From positions 726 through 64,725 of the forward strand of contig JBOGNA010000110.1 of assembly GCA_050746925.1 (NCBI GenBank): a stretch of DNA of 64,000 nucleotides, read 5' to 3'. The position numbers and the translations under genes were made by a program. This stretch comes from Candidatus Acidiferrales bacterium. Lineage in GTDB: Bacteria > Acidobacteriota > Terriglobia > Acidiferrales > UBA7541. Below, piece after piece: positions 4,391 through 51,896 of the stretch; within the stretch, counting starts at the first letter, position 1, and every line of letters starts with the position of its first letter. The notes below the pieces were generated by a model, which searched no databases, was not told the DNA's origin, and saw only the letters and a program-made list of their open reading frames with translations.

Positions 4391-4412
4391 GGTCTAGGGC
4401 CGCGGTACCAGG

Positions 4413-4828: not shown

Positions 4829-5036
4829 AAAACTCGGCGGGAGACGGGATGACAAGAACTGCTCGGCAAGAGCGAGGAATCGAGGAAGCGAATCTGCGCG
4901 CGAATGCGCTGGCGGCGGAGAAAAAAGCATTAACTGGTTGGTGCGCGTTGCCTTGACAGTGGTGCGAGCGTCCGATAGCGTCGAAGAGCGCGTCACTCGC
5001 TGGAAGAATCGCACTTCATACGAATCGGAGCCTACG

Positions 5037-5837: not shown

Positions 5838-5855
5838 CCACATCGGTCGGAGCTA

Positions 5856-6122: not shown

Positions 6123-6201
6123 GTTACCTCCCTCGCAGCAAGCTAACGGCTGACTCGGTATCGACTGCTACTTCCCCACCCACGACAGCGAGTAGGCCCG
6201 A

Positions 6202-6939
6202 TCACAGCGCCAGATCACGCAATTGCTTCGAGCCAGTTCGGCTGGCAACGATGCGTGCGCCGCTTTTCATAACCACCTGGACACGAGCGGTGTCGTAAAG
6301 ATCGATCGAAGTGATGTATTCGAGGTTAATCAGGTGGGAGCGGTGAATTCTCAAGAAATGTGCGTCCTTCAACTGCGCCTCGAGATCGGACAGCCGGACG
6401 CTAACGAGATATTGTTTCGCCGCGGTGAAAATTGTGACGTAATCATCGGCCCCTTGCACGCGTTCGAGGCTTGCGAGTGGAATGGGGAGAATGCGGTTGC
6501 CGTCACGAACGAAGATTCTGGAAAGTGCACGCGTGTGTTGCAGCGATTCTCTCGCCCGTGGGAGCAAGGGAACATCTGAGTCGTTTAATGCCTGCTGCGC
6601 GCGACGCACCACGCGTTCCAATCGGTCACGTCCAAAGGGCTTCAGAAGGTAATCGAGAGCGCCGAGTTCGAACGCGGTGACGGCGTACTGATCGTACGCG
6701 GTGGTGAAAATGACCTTGGGTTCGTATTCGAGCTGTTCGAGAACTTCCAAACCCGTTGCGCCGGGCATCACGATATCGAGAAAAATCAGATGAGGCCGCC
6801 GTTCATTGGCAATTGCAATCGCGGTATTGCCGTCGCGCGCTTCATGGATTTCGCCCGTCCAACCGAGGCCGAGGAGATGCTCGCGAAGCGTGCGTCGAGC
6901 AAGCGGCTCGTCGTCGGCGATCAGGACGGCATCGTTCAT
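6202..6939 (-). CDS. LytR/AlgR-family response regulator (REC + LytTR)
   Basis: The receiver domain has LIADDE...DIVMPG. The C-terminal LytTR domain has IHRSHLINL. There is a 4-nt overlap with the upstream kinase gene. Confidence 0.9.
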   Translation of the reverse strand: MNDAVLIADDEPLARRTLREHLLGLGWTGEIHEARDGNTAIAIANERRPHLIFLDIVMPGATGLEVLEQLEYEPKVIFTTAYDQYAVTAFELGALDYLLKPFGRDRLERVVRRAQQALNDSDVPLLPRARESLQHTRALSRIFVRDGNRILPIPLASLERVQGADDYVTIFTAAKQYLVSVRLSDLEAQLKDAHFLRIHRSHLINLEYITSIDLYDTARVQVVMKSGARIVASRTGSKQLRDLAL

Positions 6940-8102
6940 AGAGATTCACCGGTCACGGACTTCGCGGACCGAAAGCCTGCAGCGGCAGTGTCGCGGCGCG
7001 GTACGGATGAGTCTGCACCGAGTGGAACTTCGAAACTTGCTTCGAAGCCGCCGGGACCGCTTTTCACGCAGAGGCCGGCGGCGGAGCCGAAGGCGCCACG
7101 CAGGCGCTCGCGCAGCGAACGTAGCCCGAATTGATGCGATGAGCCGGCGGCAACATCAAGACGAGGGTCAACGCCTGCGTCAACGTCAGCGCCGGCGCCA
7201 GGTCCGTCATCTCGCACCGTTACGTTGAGTTTTCCATCGCGGCACGAGGAAATGATCCAGATCGAGCCGCCTTCAGGACGAACGGAAATCGCGTGGCGAA
7301 CGGCATTTTCCGCCAAGGTTTGCAGAGAAAACGGCGGAACGTCGAAGTGCACGGATTCCGGATCAATCTGCAGGCTGACTTTCAAGCGATCTTCATAGCG
7401 AAGTTGTTCGAAGACGATGTACTGGCGGGTGAAATCAAGCTCCTCGGAAAATTCCACCAATTCGCGGCCATCCTCTTTCAAGGTATAGCGAAGCATGTCG
7501 CCCAGGCGCTCGATGGCAACCTCGGAGATCGCGGGATGGAATTTCACCAGAGCAGCGAGGGTGTGGAGCGCGTTGAACAGAAAATGCGGGTTCAAGCGGG
7601 CGCGAATCGCGTCAAGGCGAGCCGAGGCTGCCAGCGCTTCCGCGCGCGCCGCGAGGGTTTCCTTTTCGTGCATGCGATTGCGCGTCTGCACGGCGTAGGA
7701 GACGCCGGCGAACAAGCCATAGAGCCAAAGTCCGGTGAGAAGTTGCCAGCCGAGAACGGGCGAGCGCCAGAAATCGTGGAGCGAGAGGTTTCCGCGGCGT
7801 ATCGAGTCGAGCCCATACACCGCGATCGTCAAAGCAATTGAGTACGCTAACGCAAAGACGATTTGCAGCAGATAGAACTTCAGACTGAGCCGAAGAGGCC
7901 ACGGTAATCGGCGGCACACATGCCAAACGGCGATTCCCAGCGCGCTCGCACTGCCCATCGAAATCATGCTGGCCGCAATGGCTGCCGGCAATTTGTAGTG
8001 CGCGTACGACATCGCGAATAACACCCAGATCGCGAAGAACGGCAGCCATGCCGCCAGGACGATCGCATAGCGCTGGATGGTCTTCGGCGTCATTTGGCGC
8101 AA
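6936..8102 (-). CDS. Sensor histidine kinase (LytS/YehU-like)
   Basis: It has a multi-TM N-terminus, a His_kinase motif LNPHFLFNALHTL and a C-terminal HATPase region. Confidence 0.85.
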   Translation of the reverse strand: MRQMTPKTIQRYAIVLAAWLPFFAIWVLFAMSYAHYKLPAAIAASMISMGSASALGIAVWHVCRRLPWPLRLSLKFYLLQIVFALAYSIALTIAVYGLDSIRRGNLSLHDFWRSPVLGWQLLTGLWLYGLFAGVSYAVQTRNRMHEKETLAARAEALAASARLDAIRARLNPHFLFNALHTLAALVKFHPAISEVAIERLGDMLRYTLKEDGRELVEFSEELDFTRQYIVFEQLRYEDRLKVSLQIDPESVHFDVPPFSLQTLAENAVRHAISVRPEGGSIWIISSCRDGKLNVTVRDDGPGAGADVDAGVDPRLDVAAGSSHQFGLRSLRERLRGAFGSAAGLCVKSGPGGFEASFEVPLGADSSVPRRDTAAAGFRSAKSVTGESL

Positions 8103-8221
8103 ATTATCGCAGTTTTTGACCTATTTCACCTCACGATTGACCGACTGATTCTGCCTGTTGGCCGAAAACTTGTGGCTCCGTTCCTAATCGCGGGCTAGTT
8201 TCGAGCGCAGAGGAGAAACAA

Positions 8222-9109
8222 GTGCGCCGAAAAAACATGCCAAGGATTGCGGCTCTACTGGTTATTTCAGCTGTAGCGATGGTCACAACAGCTGGCGGGA
8301 TGGCGGATCCTAAAGCGTCGAAAGTGGATTCCACGGTCCGCACATCGATCGTTAACGCGACGTCCGGCCTGTCGCACAAACAAGTGGCCGGGATCATCGT
8401 GCAAATACAGAGAGCCGATTATGAGGGTGATCGCGCAGCGTTGAAACGCCTGTATGACGAGCTTGCTCCTGAGGATAAGAACAAGGAACTGGCGGCGCGG
8501 GTGCGATACTGGCGCGGATTTGCTCTGTGGCGGAGAGCGATCAACGGCTTTAACGACAATACGGACCCGCAGGAGTTAGGAGCGGATTTGAAACAGGCGT
8601 GGGAGGAATTCAACGAGTCGACGAATATCGAACCGAATTTCGTGGAGGCGAAGATTGGGGCGATGTCGTGCGTGGGTCTTCTGGCATTCTCGATAAAAGA
8701 GAAAGACCCTGCCAGGATACAGGAACTAATCGTCCAAGCCAGACAACTGCGCAAGGAAATCGACGCCGCAGCTCCAGACAATCCTCGCTACCTCTGGGTG
8801 TGGGGACCGAGTCTGTGGTATGTCCCGGCGGAGCGTGGCGGCGGCCAAGAAAAAGCACTGGCGACGTATGACAAGGGCTTGGCGATGATACGGACGCACA
8901 AGGGCGCGACGAGCGATCCGCTCGAGCCAACGTGGGGAGAGCCCGAGCTGTTGATGAGCCTTGCATGGTCGAACCTGAATCGGAGTACGCCGGACTTGAA
9001 TGCGGCCGAGCAAAATGCACGTGCCGCCCTGGCGATAGTTCCCTACTGGCATTACGTGAGGGATATTTTGCTGCCGCAAATCGAGGATGCGCAGAAAAAA
9101 AAGAACTAG
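8222..9109 (+). CDS. Secreted hypothetical protein
   Basis: AGGAG lies upstream of GTG 8222. The signal peptide is AALLVISAVAMVTTAGGMA, and the mature part is helical and repeat-like. Confidence 0.6.
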   Translation: MRRKNMPRIAALLVISAVAMVTTAGGMADPKASKVDSTVRTSIVNATSGLSHKQVAGIIVQIQRADYEGDRAALKRLYDELAPEDKNKELAARVRYWRGFALWRRAINGFNDNTDPQELGADLKQAWEEFNESTNIEPNFVEAKIGAMSCVGLLAFSIKEKDPARIQELIVQARQLRKEIDAAAPDNPRYLWVWGPSLWYVPAERGGGQEKALATYDKGLAMIRTHKGATSDPLEPTWGEPELLMSLAWSNLNRSTPDLNAAEQNARAALAIVPYWHYVRDILLPQIEDAQKKKN

Positions 9110-40645: not shown

Positions 40646-42148
40646 CTAGGAAGCGCTCCCTGCTTGCTGGTTCGCCCAAAACTTTGCGAGTCCTTCCAGC
40701 GGCAGATCCGGCTGAAGCAGAGCCGTTGGCCGCCCGAATCCCGCCAGCACCGCCTCCGCCGCCAGATAACCGCTCCGTACGGCTCCTTCCATCGTGGAGG
40801 GCCAGCCGGTTTGGGTCCAGTCACCGGCGAGGTAGAAATTCGCCGACGGCGTTTCCTGGCCGGGACGCCAGCGGTCCACACCGGGCTCGGGCGAAAATGT
40901 CGCGTTCACTTCCTTGATCACTGTCGCTTTCAGTACTTTCGCTTCGCGCGTTGCCGGCAGCACGTCCGCCATCTCGCGGCGGCACAGCTCGATGATTTCA
41001 AGGCGCGAGCGCGGAACCAGATCGTAGGAAGCGCTGATCACCAGCTGCAAATATTGGCCTTCTCGCGCGCCGGGCTCAGACCGAAGCACGCCCGCGGCCG
41101 AAACTCCATCCGTATGCTCCCTTGGACGCGCGCTTCGTCCGTTCGTTTCGTTCCACGCTGAAAGCTGCGTCTTGTTGAAAATCCACTGTGTCGTGTGATC
41201 GAGCAGCGTCAGAAACGGCTCCGTCATCACGGCGCGATCGAACCAGAAATGCGCGCTCGTAATCGGCGACGTCTTGATATGCTGCAATCCTTCGAGCAGC
41301 GCGCCGGGCTCCGAAGCTTCCTTGGGCACGAGACTGAGCAGCGCGTCATGCGTTACCGCCGCGATGCACGCATCCGCTGCAAGTTCGGAACCGTCTTCCA
41401 GGACGGCGCTCGCAAATCCGCCGTCACCGAAACGGAGTTGGCGAACGCCGCAGCGCACCCGCACTTCCCCGCCGCGCTTCACAATCTCCTCGCGACAGCC
41501 CTCATACAAATCCGCCAGCGGTACCGACGGAATACCGACCCGATACCCTTTCGCGTTACTCAGAAATGCTTTCCAAAAAACCTCGATGCCGTAGCGCGCG
41601 TCCGTGCGCGCCAGCTCTTCATCCAGCGCACTCACCAGCACCACGCGCCAGAATCGCTCGATCGCACCCGGCGTTTGCCGCATCGAGTGCAGCCAGGCCA
41701 GCATCGACGCGCCCTCCGCCCGCGGGGGACTTCCCGCCGAGCGCGCGATTGCGAGCATCGCTTCGGCGATCGATCGCTTATCGGCCAGCGTAAACGCGTC
41801 GAACAACAGGAACGACGGCGCCATGTGCAGCGGCGGCGGCAGCGGCGACGCTTGAATCTCCGACCGCCGGCCGGCGCCATCGACGAAATACAGCCGGTCG
41901 TAGAACCGAATCTTTCCGCTCGCGCCCACACGCCGGTAAAAATCGGCCAGATTCGTGCAGCAACCCAGCGTCACGTGCTGGCAATTGTCCACTTCGCTGC
42001 CGTCCGGCAGCGTGTACGACGTGGCGCGCCCTCCGAGGTGAGGACGCTTCTCGATAAGTTGAACGCGAAAGCCTGCTTCAGCCAGCGCGATGGCGGAGGA
42101 CAGGCCCGCCAGGCCGCCGCCGATTACCAGGACGCTTTGCGAGGGCAT
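40646..42148 (-). CDS. hpnE: Hydroxysqualene dehydroxylase (FAD-dependent, amine-oxidase fold)
   Basis: It has the Rossmann motif VLVIGGGLAGLSSAIALAEAG directly after ATG 42148 and the C-terminal LAGDWT motif. It is adjacent to hpnC/D. Confidence 0.85.
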   Translation of the reverse strand: MPSQSVLVIGGGLAGLSSAIALAEAGFRVQLIEKRPHLGGRATSYTLPDGSEVDNCQHVTLGCCTNLADFYRRVGASGKIRFYDRLYFVDGAGRRSEIQASPLPPPLHMAPSFLLFDAFTLADKRSIAEAMLAIARSAGSPPRAEGASMLAWLHSMRQTPGAIERFWRVVLVSALDEELARTDARYGIEVFWKAFLSNAKGYRVGIPSVPLADLYEGCREEIVKRGGEVRVRCGVRQLRFGDGGFASAVLEDGSELAADACIAAVTHDALLSLVPKEASEPGALLEGLQHIKTSPITSAHFWFDRAVMTEPFLTLLDHTTQWIFNKTQLSAWNETNGRSARPREHTDGVSAAGVLRSEPGAREGQYLQLVISASYDLVPRSRLEIIELCRREMADVLPATREAKVLKATVIKEVNATFSPEPGVDRWRPGQETPSANFYLAGDWTQTGWPSTMEGAVRSGYLAAEAVLAGFGRPTALLQPDLPLEGLAKFWANQQAGSAS

Positions 42149-44024
42149 CACCCTTCCACCAGCTCGTCTTGCCAACGGCCAGACTTGCCGTGAGGAGATA
42201 TTGAACTTTTTCGGCGCTCGACAGGGAGACGCGCGAAGTGAAGACGTCGAAGTTACGCTCTTCCATCCGTGCGAGTAGCGTGCTGTAAGTGCGCACGAGC
42301 GCCCACAAAGTGGCGCGGCTATCGGCGTCGATCTGCCCGATGAGCGCGACGCCTTCTTCGTAGAATCGCCAGGCGCGGTCGGCTTCAAATTCGAGAAGGG
42401 CCTGCAGGCGCTCGGTAAGCGGACCTGCAAGTTCCTGCGCCACGCAGCCAAACCGGCTGAGATCCTCTTGCGGCAGATAGACGCGGCCCATATCGGCATC
42501 GGCGCGCACGTCGCGAATGATATTCGTCAACTGAAATGCGAGGCCCAAGCGTTCCGCGAGATCGGGATCGCGCGGGTCTTTGAATCCGAACACGTGCAAG
42601 CACGTGAGGCCAACGGTTCCCGCGACGCGATAACAATACTCGGAGAGTTGGTCGAACGTCGCGTAGGAAGCGACCGTGAGATCCATCTCAGCGCCGAGAA
42701 TCAAATCGTGGAAGTAGCGCGTGGGGATATTGAATCGCGCAATCGCATCGGCCAGTCCGGGCAGAATCGCGTGGCCGCTTGTCTCGCCTGCGATCGCTTG
42801 GTCGAGCATGCCGCGCCAGCGCGCGAGGCCTCGTCGCTTGGCTTCGAGATCGCCCGGCTCGTCCGAGACGTCGTCGATCAAGCGCATGAAAGCGTACAGA
42901 GCGAACAACGCGTTGCGCTTGTCGCGCGGCAAGCCAAAAAACGCGAGGTAGAAGCTGCTGCGCGCGCCGCGCGCGATCCGATTGCATTCGGCGTACGATT
43001 CGCGGGCCGGCAGCGCGTCCGAAGCAGCGGATGCGCCCACGGGCATGGCAGCGGCTGCGATGGATTCCGTGTTGTGCGACGAGGGCTTGCGCGAAATCGA
43101 GCCTTCCTTGCGTTTTCTTGAAACTGCTCGAACCGCGAGCGCGCGCGTCAGCATGCGAATCTGCGTCCACTTCGTGAGCGCAGGCCGGTGTTCGAGCGTG
43201 TTGTAGCCTGCCGCTTCGATGGCATCGAGAATCGCCAGGCCGCCGCGGCTGAACATCTCGAGATCGACGCTGAGTGCCCGATCCACCTGCCCGACGAGCG
43301 GCATTCCCAGCGCAAACAGCTCCCGGGTGCGCGCGATCAAGTCTTTCATCAATTCGACGTATCGCGGACTGAACTTCCGGGCCACGATATCTTCTTCCGT
43401 CAGTCCATGGGCAGCGAGCGCGTCGAGCGGAATGTAGATGCGGCCCTTCTCAAGGTCACGCGAGACGTCTTGCCAGAAATTGGCCAGCTGCAAGGCCGTG
43501 CAGGTGAAGTCGGAAAGCTTCTGCCGTCCGGCATCGCGATAATCGCAAAGATAGAGAACGAGGCGGCCTACCGGGTTCGCCGAATAGACGCAATAGTCGA
43601 GCACGTCGTCCCAGGTGGCGTAGCGCTGGACCCTCTGATCTTGACGAAACGCGCGCAGGAGATTGCTGAATGGCTCGATCGGGATATTCTTCGCGCGTAT
43701 CGTCTCGCGCAACGCGATCAGCACGGGGTGCGAAGGGTTGCGGTCCGCCCGATAGCAGAGACGAAGTTCGTCTTCCCAGGCATCGAGCAATTCAAGCGCC
43801 CGGGTGCGATCGGGAATTTCGTCACCGAGATCGTCCGACCAGCGGCAGTAAGCGTACAAATTATAGAAATGCTGGTGCAGGCGGCGAGGAAGTAGCCACG
43901 AAACGACGTTGAAATTCTCGTAGTGGTGCGTCGCCAGCCAGCGCGTGTAGCGCTGGGCGGCTTCGGCGCTCGATCCTTCCGCAGGAAGATTGCGCGCGAT
44001 TTCCAATTCAGGTGTGTTGAGCAT
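42078..44024 (-). CDS. hpnCD: Fused squalene-synthase-like HpnC (N-terminal) and presqualene diphosphate synthase HpnD (C-terminal)
   Basis: One uninterrupted ORF holds two complete SQS/PSY domains. Each has both Asp-rich motifs: WSDDLGDE and WQDVSRD in the first, LIDDVSDE and IIRDVRAD in the second. Confidence 0.85.
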   Translation of the reverse strand: MLNTPELEIARNLPAEGSSAEAAQRYTRWLATHHYENFNVVSWLLPRRLHQHFYNLYAYCRWSDDLGDEIPDRTRALELLDAWEDELRLCYRADRNPSHPVLIALRETIRAKNIPIEPFSNLLRAFRQDQRVQRYATWDDVLDYCVYSANPVGRLVLYLCDYRDAGRQKLSDFTCTALQLANFWQDVSRDLEKGRIYIPLDALAAHGLTEEDIVARKFSPRYVELMKDLIARTRELFALGMPLVGQVDRALSVDLEMFSRGGLAILDAIEAAGYNTLEHRPALTKWTQIRMLTRALAVRAVSRKRKEGSISRKPSSHNTESIAAAAMPVGASAASDALPARESYAECNRIARGARSSFYLAFFGLPRDKRNALFALYAFMRLIDDVSDEPGDLEAKRRGLARWRGMLDQAIAGETSGHAILPGLADAIARFNIPTRYFHDLILGAEMDLTVASYATFDQLSEYCYRVAGTVGLTCLHVFGFKDPRDPDLAERLGLAFQLTNIIRDVRADADMGRVYLPQEDLSRFGCVAQELAGPLTERLQALLEFEADRAWRFYEEGVALIGQIDADSRATLWALVRTYSTLLARMEERNFDVFTSRVSLSSAEKVQYLLTASLAVGKTSWWKGDALAKRPGNRRRPGGPVLRHRAG

Positions 44025-44189
44025 GAAGGCCTGACGCGGCCGAGGAGCGTGCCTTTCTACTTCCGTACTTCTACCGTTTTCCAGCCTCCCGCAATCGCAA
44101 AACTGTCGCGGGATGCGTTGCACGGAACCAACTGAGCTTCGCCGGAATAAAGCGCCGAACGTAGCGCCTAAAATTATCCCGGCCCGAGA

Positions 44190-45227
44190 CTATCCCGGAA
44201 TGACGGCGGTCTTCAGCTGCCCGTTTCGATTCTTCATGTGCTCGAAAACGGCCGGCAACTCCGCCAGCGGTACTTCGCCGGTGATGAAGTCGCTGGCGCG
44301 AACTTCCCCGCGCGCAATCGTCTCAAGCGCTTCGCGCATGAATTGCGGCGTGTGGTGAAAAGTCGATTTGATGGTGATCTCCGAGTAGTGAAGCGCGGCG
44401 GGATCGAACTCCACGTGCGCGCCGCGGGGACATCCTCCGAAGAGATTGACGGTGCCGCCCTTGCGAGCCATTTGCACAGCCCACTGCCAGGTGGCCGCCG
44501 TGCCGACCGCTTCAATCACTGCGTCGGAACCGCGGCCGCCCTCGCTCAATTCGCGAACGAGCTTCACCGGGTTCTCGATCTCGGAAATATCGAACGCGGC
44601 GATTGCGCCCAGGCGTTCCGCGGCGCGAATCTGGGATTTTCTCTTGCCCAGCGCGATCACTCGGACGCCGCGCGCGGAAAGCACGCGCACGAATTTCAAT
44701 CCGATCGGCCCGCAGCCAATGACAACGGCCGTATCGCCCGGCTGAATGCCGGTTTCATGAATGCCGCGCAGCACGCAAGCGAGCGGTTCCGCCATCGCAG
44801 CGTCCACGAACGAAACGCCGTCAGGAATTTCGAGCATGTTCTGCCGGACGATTCTGCCGGGAATGCGGATGTATTCGGCGTACGCGCCATTGTTGAAGAG
44901 CAGATCCTCACAAAGATTCGGCTGGCCTTTGCGGCAGTAGAAGCAAGCGTTGCAGGGCGCTGAATTCGCGGGCAGGACGCGCATGCCCTTGTGCACGCCG
45001 CCATTCACCGAACGTCCCTGTTCTTCGATCACGCCGGCAAGCTCATGTCCGAAAAGCGCCGGCGGCTTGATCATGCGCGCGTGAAATCCCTGCTTCCAGA
45101 CTTTCAAATCGGTGCCGCAGGTCAGGGCTACTTCGACGCGCACCAGTACTTCGTCGTCGCCGAGCCGCGGAATATCGACTCGCTCGATTTTCAGGTCTTC
45201 GCGGCCATACAGCACCGCCGCATTCAT
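44190..45227 (-). CDS. Zn-dependent alcohol/polyol dehydrogenase (MDR family)
   Basis: The catalytic Zn ligands are CGTD and GHE, the structural Zn site is CNACFYCRKGQPNLC, and the NAD fold is VIGCGPIG. Confidence 0.85.
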   Translation of the reverse strand: MNAAVLYGREDLKIERVDIPRLGDDEVLVRVEVALTCGTDLKVWKQGFHARMIKPPALFGHELAGVIEEQGRSVNGGVHKGMRVLPANSAPCNACFYCRKGQPNLCEDLLFNNGAYAEYIRIPGRIVRQNMLEIPDGVSFVDAAMAEPLACVLRGIHETGIQPGDTAVVIGCGPIGLKFVRVLSARGVRVIALGKRKSQIRAAERLGAIAAFDISEIENPVKLVRELSEGGRGSDAVIEAVGTAATWQWAVQMARKGGTVNLFGGCPRGAHVEFDPAALHYSEITIKSTFHHTPQFMREALETIARGEVRASDFITGEVPLAELPAVFEHMKNRNGQLKTAVIPG

Positions 45228-45247
45228 GTGACCGTTCTTTTCGCGTC

Positions 45248-46354
45248 TCATTCGTGCACGATGACCACTTTTAAAGTATTATCCGCCGGCTTGGCCGCCA
45301 AAGCCAATGCATCGGCGATTCGCTCGAGCGGAAACCGGTCGGAGATCATCTCCCGTATCGGCAAACGCCGCTCGAACACCAGCGCCGCGGACTCTTCCTG
45401 ATCTTCCGCCGACGCGCTGTAACTTCCCAGAATCTCTTTTTCTTCCACGCCAACGGCCGCCGCCGGAAAGTCCAGCTGCGTCACCGGGTCGTTATGAGCA
45501 AACAGTAGCACGCGTCCACCCGGCCGCGCGATAGCCAAGGCTTCGGGGACTAATGACGGGTTAGGCACGGCGAGCAGGACGGCGTCGGCGCCCCGGCCGG
45601 AGGTGTGGCGGCGCATCTCGTCAGAGAGTCTTACGCTGGCCGGATCGAAGGATTCGGCGGCACCAAAGCGAACGCTGGCGGCGCGACGTCCCGCCATCGG
45701 GTCGCTCGTGAAAACTTCCGCACCTTCGCACTTCGCGAGCAGCATCAGCAGCATTCCAATGGGTCCCTGGCCGATGACGAGAACGGTTTCGCCCGGCGCG
45801 ACGCGCGCCTTGCGTACGGCTTTCAGGCAGGTGTTCACGGGTTCGACGAAGGTGGCGTCTTCAAACGTGACATCGGGAGGCAGCGCGATCATTCCGCGCT
45901 CGACCACCCACGGCATGGCGCGAACGTATTCGGCGAAGCCGCCGCCGTTGGGATCGAAGCCGGCGGTGAGACCGGTCTTTTTGTAGCCGGCGCATTGCGA
46001 GAAGAGTTTGCGTTCGCAGTAGAAGCACGCGCCGCACGGAACGTGGTGAAAACTCATGATCCGGTCGCCGGCCCTAAATTTTTTCACGCCGGCGCCGACT
46101 TTCACGACGGTGCCAGCGAGCTCGTGGCCGAGGATTTGCGGCGGCGTTACGTAGCCGTGCTGGATTTTCTTGATGTCGGTGCCACATATACCGCAGGCGG
46201 CGACGCGGAACAGGACTTCGCCTTCGGCGATTTCGGGCACGGGTACCATCTCGACGACGACGCGGCCCTTGCCGCGATAGACGCCGGCGCGCATCTGGCC
46301 TACCGGGCCAATTGGCCTGTCGCCTACGCGGATTGAGGTGGTCGTCTGGCTCAT
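45248..46354 (-). CDS. Zn-dependent alcohol/polyol dehydrogenase (MDR family)
   Basis: It has CGICGTDIKK, GHELAG, CGACFYCERKLFSQC and VIGQGPIG. ATG 46354 was chosen. Confidence 0.85.
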   Translation of the reverse strand: MSQTTTSIRVGDRPIGPVGQMRAGVYRGKGRVVVEMVPVPEIAEGEVLFRVAACGICGTDIKKIQHGYVTPPQILGHELAGTVVKVGAGVKKFRAGDRIMSFHHVPCGACFYCERKLFSQCAGYKKTGLTAGFDPNGGGFAEYVRAMPWVVERGMIALPPDVTFEDATFVEPVNTCLKAVRKARVAPGETVLVIGQGPIGMLLMLLAKCEGAEVFTSDPMAGRRAASVRFGAAESFDPASVRLSDEMRRHTSGRGADAVLLAVPNPSLVPEALAIARPGGRVLLFAHNDPVTQLDFPAAAVGVEEKEILGSYSASAEDQEESAALVFERRLPIREMISDRFPLERIADALALAAKPADNTLKVVIVHE

Positions 46355-46365
46355 CTTCGATTTAA

Positions 46366-46478
46366 CAAATCGCAATCTATTTGCGATTAGAAATTTTTAT
46401 GGCCCTTAGTTTCAGCTACTTAACTCGATTTCTAATCCCGTATTTGCGATTAGAAATTGGCCTGGTCTAATCGCGAAG
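46366..46478. repeat. Dispersed hairpin repeat, copy 3
   Basis: It reads CAAATCGCAATCTATTTGCGATTAGAAA...CAGCTACTTAACTCGATTTCTAATC-CCGTATTTGC-GATTAGAAAT. It lies between hpnG and the first dehydrogenase gene. Confidence 0.7.
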
Positions 46479-46512: not shown

Positions 46513-47274
46513 TCATACGGCCAGCGCCGCCGATTTCGCGTTCTCGATTTGCGGCGGCGCGGCGAGCGAGCGAACGAAAGAGTCGAGAAATGCCGCCAAG
46601 TTAGATGCGGCTCGCTCGCTATCGTGCGCCAAGCGCATCAGGCCGCCGAGCTGCGCGGGCCGGGAAACCAATTGGGCGATTACTTTGGGAATACTCACCG
46701 CTCCCCGCTCGTTGAAAATTCGATCGAAATCGAGAGGTAGCGTGGAATCCGCCGTGTCGCTGATCGCTCGAATCGCAATCGCGGGAATGCTTCGCTTGGC
46801 GCTGGCCGCGAGAATCCAAAGGCCTTCCAAGTCGACGGCGTCCGCCGACGCGCCCAGATCTTGTTTCTCCGCGGCGGTTCCGACGACGCGATCCGAAGTC
46901 AGAAATCGTTCGACTCGGTTCGCACCGAGAGCCACAGCGTTCCCAAGCAAGTCTGGGTCACTGTACTGAAGCCTCGCACCCCCGGCGTCCCCTACGCTTC
47001 GAGCGGCGAGCACCTTGCCGAGCGAATGCTCAGGACGCAACCCGCCGGCGAGACCGGAGGCGATGCAAACCTCGGGAAGCTCATCAAACGCGATCTCGGC
47101 CGCTCGCTGGGCCGCAAAGCGCCCGGCGCCCGTGAGGAAGACCCGAACGTCCACGTCGTCGATCTTGGTGCGGTAGGAATGGTCCCACTGATCCGAGGCG
47201 ATCTTGCTGAAGCCTCGCAACTTCCGCCAGGGGGCGAATTCATTTTCGAGCGCGAATGTGACCAATACCTTCAA
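46513..47274 (-). CDS. hpnG: Hopanoid-associated phosphorylase/nucleosidase (PNP_UDP_1 fold)
   Basis: The nucleosidase-like motifs are ASGLAGGL, DLEG and IRAISD. TTG 47274 is preceded by GGGAG, right after the hpnA stop. The call rests partly on context. Confidence 0.75.
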   Translation of the reverse strand: MKVLVTFALENEFAPWRKLRGFSKIASDQWDHSYRTKIDDVDVRVFLTGAGRFAAQRAAEIAFDELPEVCIASGLAGGLRPEHSLGKVLAARSVGDAGGARLQYSDPDLLGNAVALGANRVERFLTSDRVVGTAAEKQDLGASADAVDLEGLWILAASAKRSIPAIAIRAISDTADSTLPLDFDRIFNERGAVSIPKVIAQLVSRPAQLGGLMRLAHDSERAASNLAAFLDSFVRSLAAPPQIENAKSAALAV

Positions 47275-47284
47275 ATGCTGCTCC

Positions 47285-48313
47285 CTAGGCTGCGGCGGCG
47301 CGTGAGAAAGGCGCCGTGGCGGCTTTTCCGCGAATGTAGCCGTGCGATTCGTACCAGCGGACGGCGCGCTGAAGAGCCGTCTCGACCGGGGTCGGCTTGA
47401 AGCCGAGTTCTCTCGCGGCTTTATCGCTCTCGACGAACATGCGGTGGCGCGACATCTTGACGCCTTCGACCGGAATCTGAGGCTCGCGGCCGCGAAGGCG
47501 CGAGAAGAATTCATCGGCGTAGCCGGCAGCGAGCGCGACGGCGTGGGGCAGTCGAACGCGCGGCGCCGGACGTCCGGTGATGGCGGAAAGCACATTCAGG
47601 ATCTGTTTCAGGGTCATGTTACGCGCGCCCAGGATATAGCGTTCGCCGACGCGTCCCTTATCGGCTGCGAGCAGGTGCCCAGCGGCGACGTCTTCCACCG
47701 CAACGACGTTCAACCCTGTATCTACGTAGGCGGGCATCTTCCCGTTCAGGAAATCGAGAATAATTCGACCCGTCGGCGTGGGTTTCCAATCGCCCGGACC
47801 GACGGGAGCAGTGGGATTGACGATGACAACCGGAACGCCCTTCGCGGCTGCTTCGAGGGCCACCTTTTCGGCGAGGAACTTCGAGCGCTTGTAATGGCCG
47901 ATCATTTCAACCAGCTCGGATTCGGTGTCTTCATTGGGAAGAGCGCCGTGGCGCGGCACGGCAATCGTGGCAACCGTGCTGGTATAGACGATGCGCTCGA
48001 CTCCCGCGCGCTGCGCCGCATCGAGCAGCCGACGGGTGCCCTCGACGTTGCTTTCGTAGATTTCTTCGGGATGCCGGGTCCAAAGCCGGTAATCGGCGGC
48101 GACATGGAAGACGCGCCGGACGCCGCGCATGGCGCGGTCGATCGAAGCGGCGTCGCGCAAATCACCTTCGGCGCGCTCGACCGGCAAATCGGCGAGAATC
48201 TCCGCATTGCTCGTCTTTCGAGAGAAGGTACGGACAGCATGGCCTTGAGCGACAAGCTGCCGGGCTACGTGGCTCCCTACGAAGCCCGTCGCCCCGGTAA
48301 CAAGAGTGGTCAT
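47285..48313 (-). CDS. hpnA: Hopanoid-associated NAD-dependent sugar epimerase/dehydratase
   Basis: It contains VTGATGFVGSHVARQL...FHVAADYRLW, as in HpnA. There is a 4-nt overlap with hpnH. Confidence 0.85.
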   Translation of the reverse strand: MTTLVTGATGFVGSHVARQLVAQGHAVRTFSRKTSNAEILADLPVERAEGDLRDAASIDRAMRGVRRVFHVAADYRLWTRHPEEIYESNVEGTRRLLDAAQRAGVERIVYTSTVATIAVPRHGALPNEDTESELVEMIGHYKRSKFLAEKVALEAAAKGVPVVIVNPTAPVGPGDWKPTPTGRIILDFLNGKMPAYVDTGLNVVAVEDVAAGHLLAADKGRVGERYILGARNMTLKQILNVLSAITGRPAPRVRLPHAVALAAGYADEFFSRLRGREPQIPVEGVKMSRHRMFVESDKAARELGFKPTPVETALQRAVRWYESHGYIRGKAATAPFSRAAAA

Positions 48314-49482
48314 AAAATGCGGAATACTTCGTCTCCCTGCTGAGCAGGAGCTACCGGAATGACGCGCCTGCTGCCATTGCCGGAGCCGTTTCCGTGGCCG
48401 CTGGAGTGGCCGTTGCCGTTGGGATGTTTGTTCGCGTCGTTTTCCTGGTCCGTGGGCTCACCGATCAGGCCGCCCATCTTGCCGGAGAGAGTCCAGCTCA
48501 GCATTTTCCAGGTGTCGCCAAGCTTTTTATTGCCGCCCAGAACGGCGGAAGCTTCATAGCCGACGTGAACCATGCAATCCGCACAGCGAGGATCGCGGCC
48601 ACGTCCGTACTGTTCCCAGGGAGTCTTCTCGATCAGGTCTTTGAAGGTTTCGTGGTGGGCGTCCGTCATCAAGTAGCACGGGCCTTTCCAACCGCGCGGG
48701 TTGTAGGTGGGCATGCCCCAAGCAGTGCACATCAGCTCGCGCTCGCCGCGAAGATATTCCATGTAGATGGGCGAGGTGACGATGTTGTAGCGCTCGAGCA
48801 AGGCGCTGGCCTGGCGGAATTTTTCGCGAATTTCTTCGCGGGACATGAAGATTTCTTTGGTCATTACAGCCGCGTAGGAGTACGCCGGCGAGAGCATGTG
48901 TCCATCGACGCCAATCGTTTGCAAGTAGGCGAAGAGGTCGGCAATTTCCTCGATGTCCGTCTCTTTGTAAATCGTGGTGTTGGAGGTGACCAGGAATCCA
49001 GCCGCCTTCGCAGCCTTGATGCCTTCCACAGCTTCGCGGAACACGCCATCGCGTTCCACGCAAATGTCGTGGGTCTTTTCCAGGCCGTCGAGATGGACGT
49101 TGAAAAAGAAACGCGAAGTGGGCTTGAAATCTTTCAGGTGCTTGCGGATGAACATGCCGTTGGTGCAGAGGTAGATATGCTTTTTGCGCGCGAGAATTTC
49201 GCTGGTGAGCCGGCCAATTTCGGGATAGATCATGGGCTCGCCGCCGCAGATGGAGACGATCGGGGTGCCGCACTCATCCACGGCCTTCAAGCACTCCTCC
49301 ACGGTCAGCATTTCGTTGATCGTGGATTTATATTCGCGAATGCGGCCGCAGCCCGTGCAGGTAAGGTTGCAAGCGTGCAGCGGCTCGAGCATCATCGTGA
49401 GCGGAAACTTCTGCGCTCCGGTGATGCTCTTGCGAGCCAGATACCCCGCCATGCTCGCAGTCATGCTCAAAGGAACTCTCAT
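48310..49482 (-). CDS. hpnH: Adenosyl-hopene transferase (radical SAM)
   Basis: It has the CxxxCxxC motif within MLEPLHACNLTCTGCGRI and HpnH-like sequence throughout. The C-terminal tail is Gly/Asn/His-rich. Confidence 0.9.
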   Translation of the reverse strand: MRVPLSMTASMAGYLARKSITGAQKFPLTMMLEPLHACNLTCTGCGRIREYKSTINEMLTVEECLKAVDECGTPIVSICGGEPMIYPEIGRLTSEILARKKHIYLCTNGMFIRKHLKDFKPTSRFFFNVHLDGLEKTHDICVERDGVFREAVEGIKAAKAAGFLVTSNTTIYKETDIEEIADLFAYLQTIGVDGHMLSPAYSYAAVMTKEIFMSREEIREKFRQASALLERYNIVTSPIYMEYLRGERELMCTAWGMPTYNPRGWKGPCYLMTDAHHETFKDLIEKTPWEQYGRGRDPRCADCMVHVGYEASAVLGGNKKLGDTWKMLSWTLSGKMGGLIGEPTDQENDANKHPNGNGHSSGHGNGSGNGSRRVIPVAPAQQGDEVFRIL

Positions 49483-51536
49483 CCATTACCCCCGTCTTCG
49501 TTTAGATGCTTTATTTCTTCGGCGGGAATCTGCAAAGCGAAAGATTTGCGCCGGCCTTTGCGCATATTGTCGAAGCGCGAAAGGGCGTACAGCGGAAACG
49601 AATTCCGGTAGAGGTGATACTTCAGATAGAAAACGCAAGGAAAACCCGTGCCGGTGAATTCGGGCTCGTCCCAGGAGCCGTCATCGCTCTGGTGTTCGGT
49701 GAGCCATCCCGCGGCGCGCTCGGAGGCCGGATCATCCGGGCCCACGGTGGCGAGCAGGCCAATCAGCGCCCAAGCGGTTTGCGAAGCGGTGCTCTTCCCT
49801 TTTCCTTTGAGCGCGGGATCGTAGTAGGAAAGGATCGATTCACCGAAGCCGCCATCCGGGTTTTGAACGGAGCGAAGCCACTGGGCGGCGCGCTGGCAAT
49901 CGGAATGGGAGGTGAGTCCCACGGTTTCGAGAGCGCGCAGGACGCCGCTGGTGCCGTAGATGTAATTCACGCCCCAGCGCCCGTACCAGGAGCCATCGGG
50001 CGTCTGGTCGTGAGCGATGAAATCACGCGCCCGCTCGATGACGGGATGATTGGCCGGCCAGCCAAACTGGCCGAGGCATTCGAGGACGCGTGCGGTGACG
50101 TCGGCGGTGGAGGGATCGAGCATCGCGTTGTGGTCGGCAAACGGGATGTGATTCAGGAACTGCAGATTGTTCTCGTGGTCGAATGCGCCCCAGCCACCGT
50201 CGCTATTCTGCATGCTGACAAGCCAGGCAATCCCGCGGCGAATCGAAGCGCGCAGAGGCGCGGAATCGGGATCAGCGACACGGCCGAGCGCCATCAGCAC
50301 GAAGGCGGTATCGTCCACGTCAGGATAGAAGTCATTCTGGAACTCAAACGCCCAACCGCCCGGCGCGGCTTTCTTATTTTTCACCTGCCAATCACCAGGG
50401 CCCAGAATTTGGTTTTTGAGAACCCAGCGCTCAGCAGCTACGAGAGCGGGATGGGATGGATCGAGGCCGGACTCTTCGAGCGACACCATGGCGATGGCGG
50501 TGTCCCACACGGGCGAGATGCAGGGCTGCACGCGAATGGTGCCATCGTGCTCGTCTTCAATTTCGTAGCGCTCGAGGAATTTGATTTCGCGGTGAAGGAG
50601 CGGATCGTCCGCGTCACCTGCCTCTGCGAGGAGCGCGAAGATGGAATTCATCATCGCGGGGTAAATGGTGGCGAGGCCTTCGCTGCGCTCCAGGCGCTCC
50701 ATCATCCATTTTCGCGCACGAGCGAGACACATCTTTCGAAACGGCTTCCACGAGGAGCGTTCGTAGAGCTTCAGTCCGCGCTCAAGCGCGAGAAACGCGT
50801 TGCGCCAGGAGATGAGGCGCTTGTCCCACTTGAACGAAGGCGGCTTCTGCCCCGGCACTTTGAACAGGTCGTTCACCGAGATGCCTTCGGGCAAGCGCCA
50901 TTGGGGCTTGTGGGCGTAAACGATCGAGAGCGGCACCACGATTCCGCGCGTCCACGACGACATTTCGTAGATATTCAGCGGGAACCAGTCCGGCAGGAGC
51001 AGCATCTCGGGCGGCATCGAGGGGACGATGCTCCAATCGATCGCGCCAACCATCGCGAGATAGAATCGAACGTAGGAATTTGTGGCTTCCAGGCCGCCGA
51101 GTTCAAGGATTTTCGCCTTGGCGCGCTGCATGTGCGGCGCGGTATCGGCATCACCGGCAAGCCGCAGCCCGACGTAGGCCTTCACGGTGGCGTTCAGCTC
51201 CGCGGGGCCGCCTTGAAAAATGTTCCAACCGCCGTCAGCGAGCTGGCGAACGCGGATATAGCGCGCGAGCTTTTCCGTTTTCTCGGATTTCAGCTGGCCC
51301 AGGATGTGGAGATACAGGATGTAATCGGATTCCAGCGTGGTATCGGCTTCGAGTTCGCCCCACCAGTAGCCGTCCTGCGCCTGCGCAGCCAGCATCCAGT
51401 CGCGACTGCGGGAGACTGCCTGTTCAATTTGAGATTCGAGGTTGCGAGTGGGCGCAACTGCCGTACCCTGTCCCGCGCCCGAATGGGCAGCTTCTATGCG
51501 CAGTCTTGCTTCCGGTGTCATCAATCCCTCAGACAT
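49479..51536 (-). CDS. shc: Squalene-hopene cyclase
   Basis: It has QW repeats (QDGYWWG, ADGGWN, DGGWG, PDGSWYGRWG) and the catalytic DVDDTA motif. The start is ATG 51536 or TTG 51560. Confidence 0.95.
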   Translation of the reverse strand: MSEGLMTPEARLRIEAAHSGAGQGTAVAPTRNLESQIEQAVSRSRDWMLAAQAQDGYWWGELEADTTLESDYILYLHILGQLKSEKTEKLARYIRVRQLADGGWNIFQGGPAELNATVKAYVGLRLAGDADTAPHMQRAKAKILELGGLEATNSYVRFYLAMVGAIDWSIVPSMPPEMLLLPDWFPLNIYEMSSWTRGIVVPLSIVYAHKPQWRLPEGISVNDLFKVPGQKPPSFKWDKRLISWRNAFLALERGLKLYERSSWKPFRKMCLARARKWMMERLERSEGLATIYPAMMNSIFALLAEAGDADDPLLHREIKFLERYEIEDEHDGTIRVQPCISPVWDTAIAMVSLEESGLDPSHPALVAAERWVLKNQILGPGDWQVKNKKAAPGGWAFEFQNDFYPDVDDTAFVLMALGRVADPDSAPLRASIRRGIAWLVSMQNSDGGWGAFDHENNLQFLNHIPFADHNAMLDPSTADVTARVLECLGQFGWPANHPVIERARDFIAHDQTPDGSWYGRWGVNYIYGTSGVLRALETVGLTSHSDCQRAAQWLRSVQNPDGGFGESILSYYDPALKGKGKSTASQTAWALIGLLATVGPDDPASERAAGWLTEHQSDDGSWDEPEFTGTGFPCVFYLKYHLYRNSFPLYALSRFDNMRKGRRKSFALQIPAEEIKHLNEDGGNG

Positions 51537-51896
51537 ATTGTTGATCGTTATTTGAGCCAATCAGAAACCGCAGATGCAGCACGACGGCCTAGTCGTCCAG
51601 CGCCCCAAGAAAAACAGCGCGGAGAAACTAGCAAGCCCGCTTCGCTGCCCTGCAGTGAGCACCCGTACCAGGCGGCCTGATGAACAAGCCTCTCCTGCCG
51701 TCCGGACTCGCTGCCCGGCTCCCTACCGCGCCGGTTCCAATGGCCCGTGTGTGGGCTATCATAACTCCGGCAAAATTCAACTTGGCCCTTGATGCAACTA
51801 CAGTCATACCGTAACAGTAACATTATGTTCGGCTTTGCCTGCTTGGTCAACTAGAAATCCCGAACTGAGTGTCCAAAGGCGTGAGATGGCTGGAGG

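What the first reader, a model, noticed from the sequence alone, without database searches (positions are those of the whole stretch)
44190..46354. Two tandem Zn-dependent polyol/alcohol dehydrogenases embedded in the hopanoid cluster: candidates for an unassigned side-chain step
All genes from shc (51536) to hpnE (40646) are on the minus strand. The order is shc-hpnH-hpnA-hpnG, then two MDR-family dehydrogenases with complete catalytic and structural Zn sites, then hpnCD-hpnE. Established pathway knowledge is that HpnH makes adenosylhopane and HpnG removes adenine to give ribosylhopane. To my knowledge, the reduction of the open-chain (aldehyde) form of ribosylhopane to bacteriohopanetetrol has no assigned enzyme. 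Sorbitol/threonine-dehydrogenase-like enzymes act on exactly this type of polyol/aldose carbonyl. Their placement directly after hpnG is therefore suggestive, but it is only guilt by association.
Basis: inference. Interest (0 to 1): 0.6.

Follow-up and report, generated by a model that had tools for sequence, protein, structure and literature searches.

The report
Dehydrogenase pair in hopanoid gene cluster
Two intact zinc dehydrogenase genes, one built for NAD and one for NADP, sit inside the hopanoid-lipid gene cluster of this soil acidobacterium; the pairing was already listed in 2017 as unknown genes ug1/ug2, and the two remain plausible but unproven, lineage-restricted candidates for a still unassigned redox step of the pathway.

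Summary
On the minus strand the order is shc, hpnH, hpnA, a divergent hpnG, MDR_A, MDR_B, fused hpnCD, hpnE. Both dehydrogenases keep all catalytic and structural zinc ligands.

They are the genes that Sinninghe Damsté et al. (2017) called ug1 and ug2, with function "not established". So the association is known, and this window adds one more member.

What I could add:
- **Conservation.** All 80 best related loci keep the pair inside the hpn cluster. In 301 Acidobacteriota genomes the pair occurs in 72% of HpnH+HpnC+ genomes, 19% of HpnH-only, 7% of HpnC-only and 0.5% of the rest.
- **Cofactors.** MDR_A has an invariant NAD-type Asp. MDR_B has an NADP-type basic motif.
- **Split clusters.** In one genus the cluster breaks exactly between the two genes. 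MDR_A stays with shc-hpnH-hpnA-hpnG and MDR_B stays with hpnCDE.
- **Second phylum.** In Armatimonadota-labelled genomes, hpnC-hpnD-hpnE is the pair's only recurrent neighbour.
- **Not universal.** 27 of 57 HpnH+ Acidobacteriota lack the pair, a few genomes without shc or hpnH keep it, and stand-alone pairs exist.

Verdict: a real accessory redox module of the hopanoid pathway. The ribosylhopane-reductase reading is partly supported, best for MDR_B, and remains untested.

The parts
44190..45251 (-). MDR_B (= ug2), 353 aa. A zinc MDR of the polyol-dehydrogenase type, with an NADP-type cofactor motif (VIALGKRK, no Asp at the end of beta-2).
   Evidence: Pfam ADH_N 80 bits and ADH_zinc_N 70 bits. 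Motifs read. Conservation in 45 orthologues. It lies directly upstream of hpnC in nearly all loci.
45248..46294 (-). MDR_A (= ug1), 348 aa from the conserved start. The open frame allows starts at 46354 (ATG) or 46375 (TTG). A zinc MDR of the polyol-dehydrogenase type, with an invariant NAD-type Asp (TSD).
   Evidence: Pfam ADH_N 90 bits and ADH_zinc_N 66 bits. Motifs read. Asp present in 45 of 45 orthologues. Orthologues align from residue 28 on.
45248..45251 (-). ATGA overlap: the MDR_A stop codon shares bases with the MDR_B start codon, the arrangement expected for translational coupling.
   Evidence: Read directly from the sequence. In 119 related loci the median distance from the MDR_A stop to the conserved start of MDR_B is 35 nt.
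46366..46478 (.). Hairpin-repeat copy in the hpnG-MDR_A spacer (two stem-loops with the unit TTTCTAATCGCAAATA). It lengthens this spacer relative to relatives.
   Evidence: Sequence. Fold of -41.5 kcal/mol with z = -2.0. From the hpnG stop to the conserved start of MDR_A is 218 nt here, against a median of 56 nt in 93 relatives.
46513..47595 (-). hpnG-like nucleoside phosphorylase/hydrolase. This is the longest ORF; the true start probably lies near the hpnA stop.
   Evidence: PNP_UDP_1 44 bits; TIGR03468 97 bits, below the cut-off of 187. Relatives align from about residue 107 on.
47285..48313 (-). hpnA (SDR family, 'hopanoid-associated sugar epimerase').
   Evidence: TIGR03466 490 bits against a cut-off of 368.
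48310..49482 (-). hpnH (radical SAM adenosylhopane synthase).
   Evidence: TIGR03470 437 bits against a cut-off of 225.
49479..51560 (-). shc (squalene-hopene cyclase).
   Evidence: TIGR01507 764 bits.
42078..44123 (-). Fused hpnC-hpnD (hydroxysqualene synthase plus presqualene diphosphate synthase).
   Evidence: TIGR03464 510 bits and TIGR03465 422 bits in one ORF.
40646..42499 (-). hpnE (hydroxysqualene dehydroxylase).
   Evidence: TIGR03467 444 bits.

Best explanation
MDR_A (ug1) and MDR_B (ug2) are a co-inherited two-enzyme redox module. It is an accessory, lineage-restricted part of the hopanoid pathway in Terriglobia-type Acidobacteriota and in some Armatimonadota.

**Shown**
- Both are intact zinc MDRs of the polyol-dehydrogenase type.
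- They almost always occur together.
- Their trees run in parallel.
- They are transcriptionally packed with hpn genes.
- Their presence follows HpnH.

**Inferred**
- They act on the ribose-derived C5 side chain that HpnH and HpnG create.
- The NADP-type MDR_B reduces a side-chain carbonyl to the polyol, giving bacteriohopanetetrol. The substrate would be the open-chain aldehyde of ribosylhopane or a 34-keto isomer.
- The NAD-type MDR_A oxidises a side-chain carbinol or hemiacetal.
- Together they would set or edit the oxidation state or the stereochemistry of the side chain.

Bacteria without the pair must do the reduction with another enzyme.
For: **Anatomy**
- Both proteins have the two MDR domains and all zinc ligands.
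- The cofactor split is conserved: Asp in 45 of 45 MDR_A orthologues, and [KR][RH] with no Asp in MDR_B.
- The nearest solved relatives are NADP(H) ketose reductase (1e3j), sorbitol dehydrogenases, threonine dehydrogenases and galactitol-1-phosphate dehydrogenase.

**Linkage**
- Same gene order in all 26 genomes that carry the pair among the 41 relatives searched, kept even where hpnH has moved away.
- 80 of 80 best loci among GTDB species genomes keep the pair inside the hpn cluster.
- 40-41 of 45 orthologues in a phylum-wide sample lie in hpn context, and the two trees are parallel.
- Spacers are short and the window has an ATGA overlap.

**Phylogenetic profile**
- 34 of 301 genomes have both genes. 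That is 26 of 36 HpnH+HpnC+, 4 of 21 HpnH-only, 3 of 41 HpnC-only and 1 of 203 with neither (built).

**Split and second phylum**
- In one genus MDR_A stays with shc-hpnH-hpnA-hpnG and MDR_B stays with hpnCDE.
- In an Armatimonadota MAG and its relatives the only conserved neighbours of the pair are hpnC, hpnD and hpnE. One locus lies beside shc-hpnH-hpnA-hpnG.

**Literature**
- The step is unassigned (PMC12583986).
Against: - No biochemical or genetic data exist for these genes.
- 27 of 57 HpnH+ Acidobacteriota lack the pair.
- Chloracidobacterium thermophilum, for which PMC5462960 reports bacteriohopanepolyols, lacks ug2.
- A 2025 survey of Alphaproteobacteria found no obvious new candidate genes beside hpn clusters.
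- Five genomes keep the pair without canonical shc or hpnH.
- Homologous tandem pairs at 43-53% identity stand alone or follow proline dehydrogenase.
- The best-kept junction is to hpnC, not hpnG.
- From established knowledge of the family: polyol-type MDRs usually act on a secondary carbinol or ketone next to the chain end, not on an aldose C-1.
- The profile statistics are not corrected for shared ancestry.
Confidence: 0.4

Rival explanations
1. The pair serves squalene supply. It would work with HpnC, HpnD and HpnE, for example by handling hydroxysqualene or a farnesyl-derived alcohol or aldehyde, or by feeding the reduction step. It would not act on the C35 side chain.
For: - MDR_B sits directly upstream of hpnC in almost every locus.
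- When the cluster splits, MDR_B stays with hpnCDE.
- In Armatimonadota-labelled genomes hpnC, hpnD and hpnE are the only recurrent neighbours: 13 of 44 genomes by coordinates, 6 of 21 fetched loci.
- In the ENA contig L193 the coding regions of the two MDR genes and hpnC overlap by 4 nt at each junction, and hpnD follows after a 16-nt gap.
- The source of reducing equivalents for HpnE (FADH2) is not named in the papers I read (PMC7306690).
Against: - 38 of 41 HpnC+ HpnH- Acidobacteriota lack the pair, so HpnCDE works without it.
- Most pair-less relatives of the Armatimonadota genome also have HpnC.
- Zinc polyol-type MDRs are neither flavin reductases nor C=C reductases (established family knowledge).
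- hpnA and hpnB also sit next to hpnC in Zymomonas-type clusters (my recollection of Perzl et al. 1998, not read here), yet they are absent from genomes without hpnH (PMC12583986). Adjacency to hpnC therefore does not imply a role in squalene synthesis.
Confidence: 0.15
2. The pair is a self-contained dehydrogenase cassette for a soluble polyol, sugar or amino alcohol. It has no hopanoid substrate and merely sits in, or is co-regulated with, envelope-lipid operons.
For: - Stand-alone tandem pairs occur in a marine TARA contig and in two other metagenome contigs.
- One acidobacterial family has proline dehydrogenase-MDR_A-MDR_B.
- 13 of 21 Armatimonadota loci have variable neighbours.
- Genomes G099, G319 and G330 carry the genes without shc or hpnH.
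- Automatic annotation calls them L-iditol 2-dehydrogenase.
Against: - Chance hitch-hiking does not explain 80 of 80 conserved placements.
- It does not explain retention of each half next to hpn genes after the split.
- It does not explain recurrence beside hpnCDE in a second phylum where no other neighbour is conserved.
- It does not explain the 33-fold enrichment with HpnH among HpnC+ genomes.
- No sugar transporter, kinase or catabolic regulator accompanies the pair in any locus I annotated.
Confidence: 0.25
3. One reading: one of these enzymes is THE missing, general ribosylhopane reductase of bacteriohopanetetrol producers.
For: - The step is unassigned.
- The family chemistry is of the polyol/carbonyl type.
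- The genes lie after hpnG.
Against: - Absent from 27 of 57 HpnH+ Acidobacteriota.
- The whole MDR_A orthogroup is small: about 12 full-length 50%-identity clusters at 40% identity or more among 1.84 billion representatives.
- No substitute reductase sits after hpnG in pair-less Acidobacteriota.
- No candidate was seen next to alphaproteobacterial clusters (PMC12583986).
Confidence: 0.04

Closest known systems
ug1 and ug2 of acidobacterial hopanoid gene clusters (Sinninghe Damsté et al. 2017, Front Microbiol 8:968, PMC5462960)
   Same: - Cluster C is hpnA-hpnG-ug1, where ug1 is a Zn-dependent alcohol dehydrogenase of about 370 aa.
- Cluster A is ug2-hpnC-hpnD-hpnE, where ug2 is a Zn-binding alcohol dehydrogenase of about 350 aa.
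- Subdivision 2 genomes have fused hpnCD.
- Position, size and family all match MDR_A and MDR_B here.
   Different: - That paper gives no function and suggested HpnA for the ribosylhopane step.
- It does not report the NAD/NADP split, the phylum-wide profile or the occurrence in Armatimonadota.
- This window is an uncultured Acidiferrales (subdivision 2) genome in which clusters B, C and A are contiguous.
Polyol-dehydrogenase branch of zinc MDRs: NADP(H)-dependent ketose reductase (PDB 1e3j), sorbitol dehydrogenase (1pl6, 3qe3), L-threonine 3-dehydrogenase (2dq4, 2d8a), galactitol-1-phosphate 5-dehydrogenase (4a2c)
   Same: - Domain architecture.
- Cys/His/Glu(+Glu) catalytic zinc site and Cys4 structural zinc site.
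- Rossmann GxGxxG motif.
- These are the best sequence matches among solved structures, with E-values from 1e-30 to 1e-44.
   Different: - All NCBIfam equivalog scores lie far below their cut-offs: IolM 159-168 against 450, Tdh 138 against 458. Neither protein is a member of any named enzyme family.
- MDR_A carries its own invariant TAGFxPxGGG loop after the structural zinc lobe.
- The substrate is unknown.
HpnA (hopanoid-associated SDR), the other unassigned oxidoreductase of hpn clusters
   Same: - Encoded in the same operon, directly upstream.
- Also proposed, without evidence, for the reduction of ribosylhopane (PMC5462960).
- Also often adjacent to hpnC in other bacteria (my recollection of Zymomonas-type clusters, not checked here).
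   Different: - A different superfamily (SDR rather than MDR).
- Much wider distribution. It is present in pair-less Acidobacteriota loci next to hpnH and hpnG.
- Reported as not essential for bacteriohopanetetrol in Burkholderia, as cited in PMC5462960.

Membership tests
Zinc-dependent medium-chain dehydrogenase/reductase (MDR) superfamily | GroES-like catalytic domain plus Rossmann cofactor domain, both above the Pfam gathering scores | tested here: met
   ADH_N scores 80 and 90 bits against a cut-off of 23.5. ADH_zinc_N scores 70 and 66 bits against a cut-off of 31.8.
Zinc-dependent medium-chain dehydrogenase/reductase (MDR) superfamily | Catalytic zinc ligands (Cys, His of GHE, Glu) and a structural zinc Cys4 loop | tested here: met
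   Read in the translations. Kept in 44-45 of 45 orthologues of each gene. Metal binding itself cannot be tested with these tools.
Named polyol/threonine dehydrogenase equivalogs (Tdh, IolM, GatD, IdnD) | Score above the curated NCBIfam equivalog cut-off | tested here: not met
   The best match is IolM at 159 and 168 bits against 450. Tdh scores 138 against 458. GatD scores 92 and 132 against 550.
ug1/ug2 of acidobacterial hopanoid clusters | A Zn alcohol dehydrogenase of about 370 aa after hpnA-hpnG, and one of about 350 aa directly before hpnC, in subdivision 1, 2 or 3 Acidobacteria | tested here: met
   Gene order. Definitions. Lineage names (Acidiferrales, gp2).
General ribosylhopane reductase (hypothetical enzyme) | Present in all organisms that make bacteriohopanetetrol | tested here: not met
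   27 of 57 HpnH+ Acidobacteriota lack the pair. Literature.
General ribosylhopane reductase (hypothetical enzyme) | NADPH-dependent reduction of ribosylhopane to bacteriohopanetetrol | not testable with these tools
   Only a motif can be offered: MDR_B has an NADP-type beta-2 end and MDR_A an NAD-type Asp. That the cell-free reduction (Bodlenner et al. 2015) needs NADPH is my recollection; the paper was not held.
HpnG (TIGR03468), the upstream neighbour | Score above the family cut-off | tested here: not met
   97 bits against 187. The PNP_UDP_1 superfamily match is above its cut-off. Position and synteny with hpnA are as for the hpnG of PMC5462960.

The most novel reading that the evidence does not exclude
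The pair is a dedicated two-step side-chain machine. NADP-type MDR_B would be, in these lineages, the long-sought enzyme that makes bacteriohopanetetrol from ribosylhopane or from its 34-keto isomer. NAD-type MDR_A would oxidise the carbinol next to the chain end. Together they could work as an oxidation-reduction epimerase that produces a bacteriohopanetetrol stereoisomer such as 34R, whose enzymology is also unknown.
Probability: 0.2. Interest if true: 0.75.

Novelty: new member of a known kind. Interest (0 to 1): 0.45.

Why it matters
Bacteriohopanepolyols are major membrane lipids and the source of geohopanes, which are widely used molecular fossils. The step from ribosylhopane to bacteriohopanetetrol, and the origin of the tetrol's stereoisomers, still have no enzyme.

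A conserved NAD/NADP dehydrogenase pair inside the operon of the most abundant soil Acidobacteria gives two concrete genes to test. If they act on the side chain, they would close a gap in the pathway for these lineages. They could also explain isomer patterns used as biomarkers.

If they do not act on it, the recurrent coupling to hpnCDE points to an unknown need of the three-enzyme squalene route.

Tried and rejected
1. **MDR_B-HpnCD fusion.** Long open frames of 1027-1135 aa reported for MDR_B matches suggested a fusion. Reading the frames showed a stop right after MDR_B, so the length comes from open frame upstream.
2. **P0094 (609 aa).** It looked like an MDR_A-MDR_B fusion. The junction is scrambled sequence, so it is probably a frameshift artefact.
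3. **P0141 (602 aa).** I hoped for an HpnG-MDR fusion. The N-terminal part is an NTP_transferase domain and the MDR part is only 38% identical, so it is a different enzyme.
4. **Substitute reductase.** I looked for another reductase after hpnG in pair-less Acidobacteriota. I found IPP isomerase plus HMG-CoA reductase, HpnI, a squalene-synthase-like gene and a transporter. Nothing was consistent.
5. **Profile in the Armatimonadota lineage.** HpnH (57 of 61) and HpnC (55 of 61) are both nearly universal there, so the profile cannot separate the hypotheses.
6. **In-frame TGA.** Stops flagged in many Armatimonadota matches lie upstream of the conserved start, not inside the enzyme.
7. **Proline dehydrogenase neighbour.** Seen in only one acidobacterial family and not in Armatimonadota.
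9. **Structure prediction.** Not run. Without coordinates it could not show a substrate pocket, and sequence already places both proteins next to solved polyol dehydrogenases.
Full report
**1. What is there**

The minus strand between 40646 and 51560 carries a tight string of genes. Pfam and NCBIfam identify them as:
- shc
- hpnH
- hpnA
- a PNP_UDP_1 protein in the hpnG position (TIGR03468 at 97 bits, under its cut-off of 187)
- two medium-chain dehydrogenases
- a single ORF holding both HpnC and HpnD
- hpnE

I call the upstream dehydrogenase MDR_A (45248-46375 as the longest frame) and the downstream one MDR_B (44190-45251).

Both translations show the catalytic zinc ligands: a Cys in the CG(I/T)CGTD or CGTD motif, the His-Glu of GHE, and the later Glu of xEPxxxC. 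Both also show the CxxCxxCx7C structural zinc loop and a GxGxxG Rossmann motif.

The MDR_A stop overlaps the MDR_B start as ATGA. Orthologues of MDR_A align only from residue 28 of the longest frame.

**2. Who owns the window**

Close homologues come from MAGs named Candidatus Acidiferrales, Acidoferrales, Acidoferrum, or "gp2". This is subdivision 2 of the Acidobacteriota, an uncultured soil lineage.

**3. State of knowledge**

- A 2025 survey says the enzyme converting ribosylhopane to bacteriohopanetetrol "has not yet been established" (PMC12583986).
- A 2026 review even draws the step as non-enzymatic (PMC13459092).

Sinninghe Damsté et al. 2017 (PMC5462960) describe cluster C as hpnA-hpnG-ug1 and cluster A as ug2-hpnC-hpnD-hpnE. 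They also note fused hpnCD in subdivision 2. Their Table S1 lists ug1 as a "Zn-dependent alcohol dehydrogenase (ca. 370 AA)" and ug2 as a "Zn-binding alcohol dehydrogenase (ca. 350 AA)", both with function "not established".

MDR_A is ug1 and MDR_B is ug2. That paper suspected HpnA, not ug1 or ug2, for the reduction. In the held literature only this paper combines hopanoid, alcohol dehydrogenase, hpnC and hpnH.

**4. Conservation of the neighbourhood**

*Close relatives.* Among the 41 relatives searched, 26 genomes carry the pair: the window's own genome, all 24 genomes of its genus and one of a second family. The third family of the order lacks both the pair and HpnH. In about ten genomes of the genus hpnH has left the cluster, and a different, higher-scoring hpnH lies elsewhere. 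The pair nevertheless stays between hpnG and hpnCD.

*GTDB species genomes.* A scan with an MDR_A profile returned at least 598 relatives. The best 80 loci are all acidobacterial in type, and every one shows MDR_A-MDR_B inside hpn genes.

*Spacers are short*:

| Junction | Median distance | This window |
|---|---|---|
| hpnG stop to conserved MDR_A start | 56 nt | 218 nt |
| MDR_A stop to conserved MDR_B start | 35 nt | 20 nt |
| MDR_B stop to conserved HpnC region | 143 nt | 243 nt |

The window is an outlier at the first junction because a hairpin-repeat copy is inserted there.

**5. Phylum-wide sample**

In 301 evenly drawn Acidobacteriota genomes:
- 35 have an MDR_B orthologue at 50% identity or more.
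- 35 have an MDR_A orthologue at 46% identity or more.
- 34 have both.
- HpnH is in 57 and HpnC (above its cut-off) is in 77.

Frequency of the pair by genome class:

| Genome class | Genomes with the pair |
|---|---|
| HpnH+ HpnC+ | 26 of 36 |
| HpnH+ only | 4 of 21 |
| HpnC+ only | 3 of 41 |
| Neither | 1 of 203 |

Among HpnC+ genomes the odds ratio for HpnH is 33 (Fisher p = 3e-9). Among HpnH+ genomes the odds ratio for HpnC is 11. These figures are not corrected for shared ancestry. They do show that the three-enzyme squalene route runs without the pair in most genomes. They also show that the pair follows the capacity to extend the side chain.

A tree of 106 sequences gives two well-supported orthogroups with parallel internal topology. 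40 of 45 MDR_A and 41 of 45 MDR_B orthologues lie in hpn context.

**6. Informative rearrangements**

- **Split cluster.** In one genus (ten sampled genomes) the cluster is split exactly between the two genes. One locus holds shc-hpnH-hpnA-(hpnG-sized gap)-MDR_A and another holds MDR_B-hpnC-hpnD-hpnE. This is probably a single ancestral event.
- **Relocated hpnG.** In another family the order is ispH-hpnA-MDR_A-MDR_B-hpnC-hpnD-hpnE, followed by a PNP_UDP_1 gene.
- **Pair without shc or hpnH.** Three genomes of that family, and two from other families, have no canonical shc or hpnH. One of them carries a very divergent cyclase beside a polyprenyl synthase and a radical SAM gene.
- **Proline dehydrogenase context.** In one further family the pair follows a proline dehydrogenase gene and no hpn genes are near.

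**7. Beyond the phylum**

A search of 1.84 billion cluster representatives with MDR_A found only about a dozen full-length clusters at 40% identity or more. Below that come generic MDRs. Their contexts were:

| Representative | Identity to MDR_A | Context |
|---|---|---|
| P0129 | 53% | A hopanoid cluster |
| P0275 (member of the P0128 cluster, marine TARA) | 44% | Tandem pair standing alone |
| P0134 | 43% | Tandem pair standing alone |
| P0139 | 43% | Tandem pair standing alone |
| P0136 | 42% | Single cyanobacterial gene |
| P0133 (ENA contig L193) | 40% | MDR-MDR-hpnC-hpnD; 4-nt coding overlaps at the first two junctions, a 16-nt gap before hpnD; hpnH convergent |
| P0140 | 40% | Aminotransferase-MDR-MDR-x-hpnC-hpnD-hpnE |

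P0140 comes from MAGs that NCBI labels Armatimonadota. That genome has shc and hpnH elsewhere.

Among 61 relatives of that genome, 57 have HpnH, 55 have HpnC and 44 have the pair. Those pairs are 47-55% identical to the window's proteins. In 13 genomes hpnC follows within about 3 kb. In one locus the pair lies beside shc-hpnH-hpnA-hpnG. In the rest the neighbours vary.

Clustering all flanking proteins showed that HpnC, HpnD and HpnE are the only neighbour families shared by more than three loci. The link to hopanoid genes therefore recurs in a second phylum, mainly through the MDR_B-to-hpnC junction.

**8. Chemistry that the sequences allow**

- No NCBIfam equivalog cut-off is approached.
- The nearest solved structures are an uncharacterised zinc dehydrogenase (4ej6), NADP(H) ketose reductase (1e3j), sorbitol dehydrogenases, threonine dehydrogenases and galactitol-1-phosphate dehydrogenase. 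Both proteins thus belong to the polyol-dehydrogenase branch without being any named enzyme.
- MDR_A has an invariant Asp at the end of beta-2 (45 of 45). MDR_B has no Asp there but has [KR][RH].
- By the usual rule for Rossmann folds this predicts NAD for MDR_A and NADP for MDR_B. That is an inference, not a measurement.
- A biosynthetic reduction would fit MDR_B.
- An NAD-linked partner suggests a second step: oxidation of the carbinol next to the chain end, or of the hemiacetal. With MDR_B this could amount to epimerisation.
- The 34R and 34S tetrols both exist, and no enzyme is known for the difference (PMC12583986).

**9. Weighing**

*For a hopanoid role:* the placement is conserved, each half is retained after the split, the link recurs in a second phylum, the pair is enriched with HpnH, and no catabolic companions are present.

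*Against the specific reductase reading:* about half of HpnH+ Acidobacteriota lack the pair. No consistent substitute reductase sits after hpnG in them. Homologous pairs exist without hopanoid genes. The strongest junction is to hpnC.

Adjacency to hpnC is weak evidence for a squalene role. As I recall (not checked here), hpnA and hpnB sit there too in other bacteria, yet they are absent from genomes without hpnH (PMC12583986).

My estimates:
- About 0.4 that the pair acts on the C35 side chain as a lineage-specific module.
- Within that, about 0.2 that MDR_B is the local ribosylhopane (or keto-isomer) reductase.
- About 0.15 for a role in squalene supply.
- About 0.25 for an unrelated cassette.

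**10. Earlier notes of this scan**

After I had reached the ug1/ug2 and NAD/NADP reading, I looked at earlier agent notes. Several describe the same pair in other genomes with the same verdict, and some claim occurrence in other phyla. I treated that claim as a lead. I confirmed one further phylum, by NCBI label only. I did not verify "three" or "five" phyla.

**11. Limits**

- There is no experimental evidence.
"Armatimonadota" rests on the NCBI label of one MAG.
- MAG incompleteness may explain some of the absences of shc and hpnH.

Noticed in passing
window 46366-46478: A hairpin-repeat copy (two stem-loops, unit TTTCTAATCGCAAATA) fills the hpnG-MDR_A spacer. From the hpnG stop to the conserved MDR_A start is 218 nt here, against a median of 56 nt in 93 related loci. 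It is therefore an insertion into an otherwise tight operon.
   Followed up: partly
G002, G003, G010, G012-G014, G016, G022, G024 (loci L021-L029) versus window 48310-49482: Two kinds of hpnH exist within one genus. The in-cluster kind scores about 437 bits on TIGR03470. A kind scoring about 550 bits is encoded elsewhere in genomes whose cluster has lost hpnH. This looks like displacement of hpnH by a second, Terriglobales-like copy.
   Followed up: partly
L084 (G250:C47) 2921-8835: An acidobacterium without canonical shc or hpnH carries a very divergent squalene-hopene-cyclase-like gene (24% identity). Beside it lie a prenyltransferase-toroid protein, a DUF116-polyprenyl synthase fusion and a radical SAM gene. 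This may be a different cyclic isoprenoid pathway.
   Followed up: partly
L064 7581-10617 and L065 9548-12763: In one acidobacterial family the orthologous pair directly follows a proline dehydrogenase gene, with no hpn genes within 20 kb. One of these genomes has shc and hpnH elsewhere and the other has neither.
   Followed up: partly
window 46513-47595: The hpnG-position protein scores only 97 bits on TIGR03468 (cut-off 187). Its longest ORF overlaps hpnA by about 310 nt, so the real start is probably near the hpnA stop.
   Followed up: no
L093, L108, L116: Three contigs carry the typical Acidiferrales lpx-shc-hpn-MDR cluster at 70-84% identity. They come from MAGs that NCBI labels Verrucomicrobiia or Rugosimonospora, so they are probably mis-binned or mislabelled.
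   Followed up: no
P0141 (metagenome protein, 602 aa): A natural fusion of an NTP_transferase domain with an MDR domain 38% identical to MDR_A. The architecture recalls cytidylyltransferase/pentitol-phosphate reductase pairs. That resemblance is from memory and was not tested.
   Followed up: no
L171 and L173 (G133, G204): In pair-less Acidobacteriota, shc-hpnH-hpnG is followed by a type 2 IPP isomerase and an NADPH HMG-CoA reductase. Mevalonate-pathway genes are thus joined to the hopanoid cluster.
   Followed up: no
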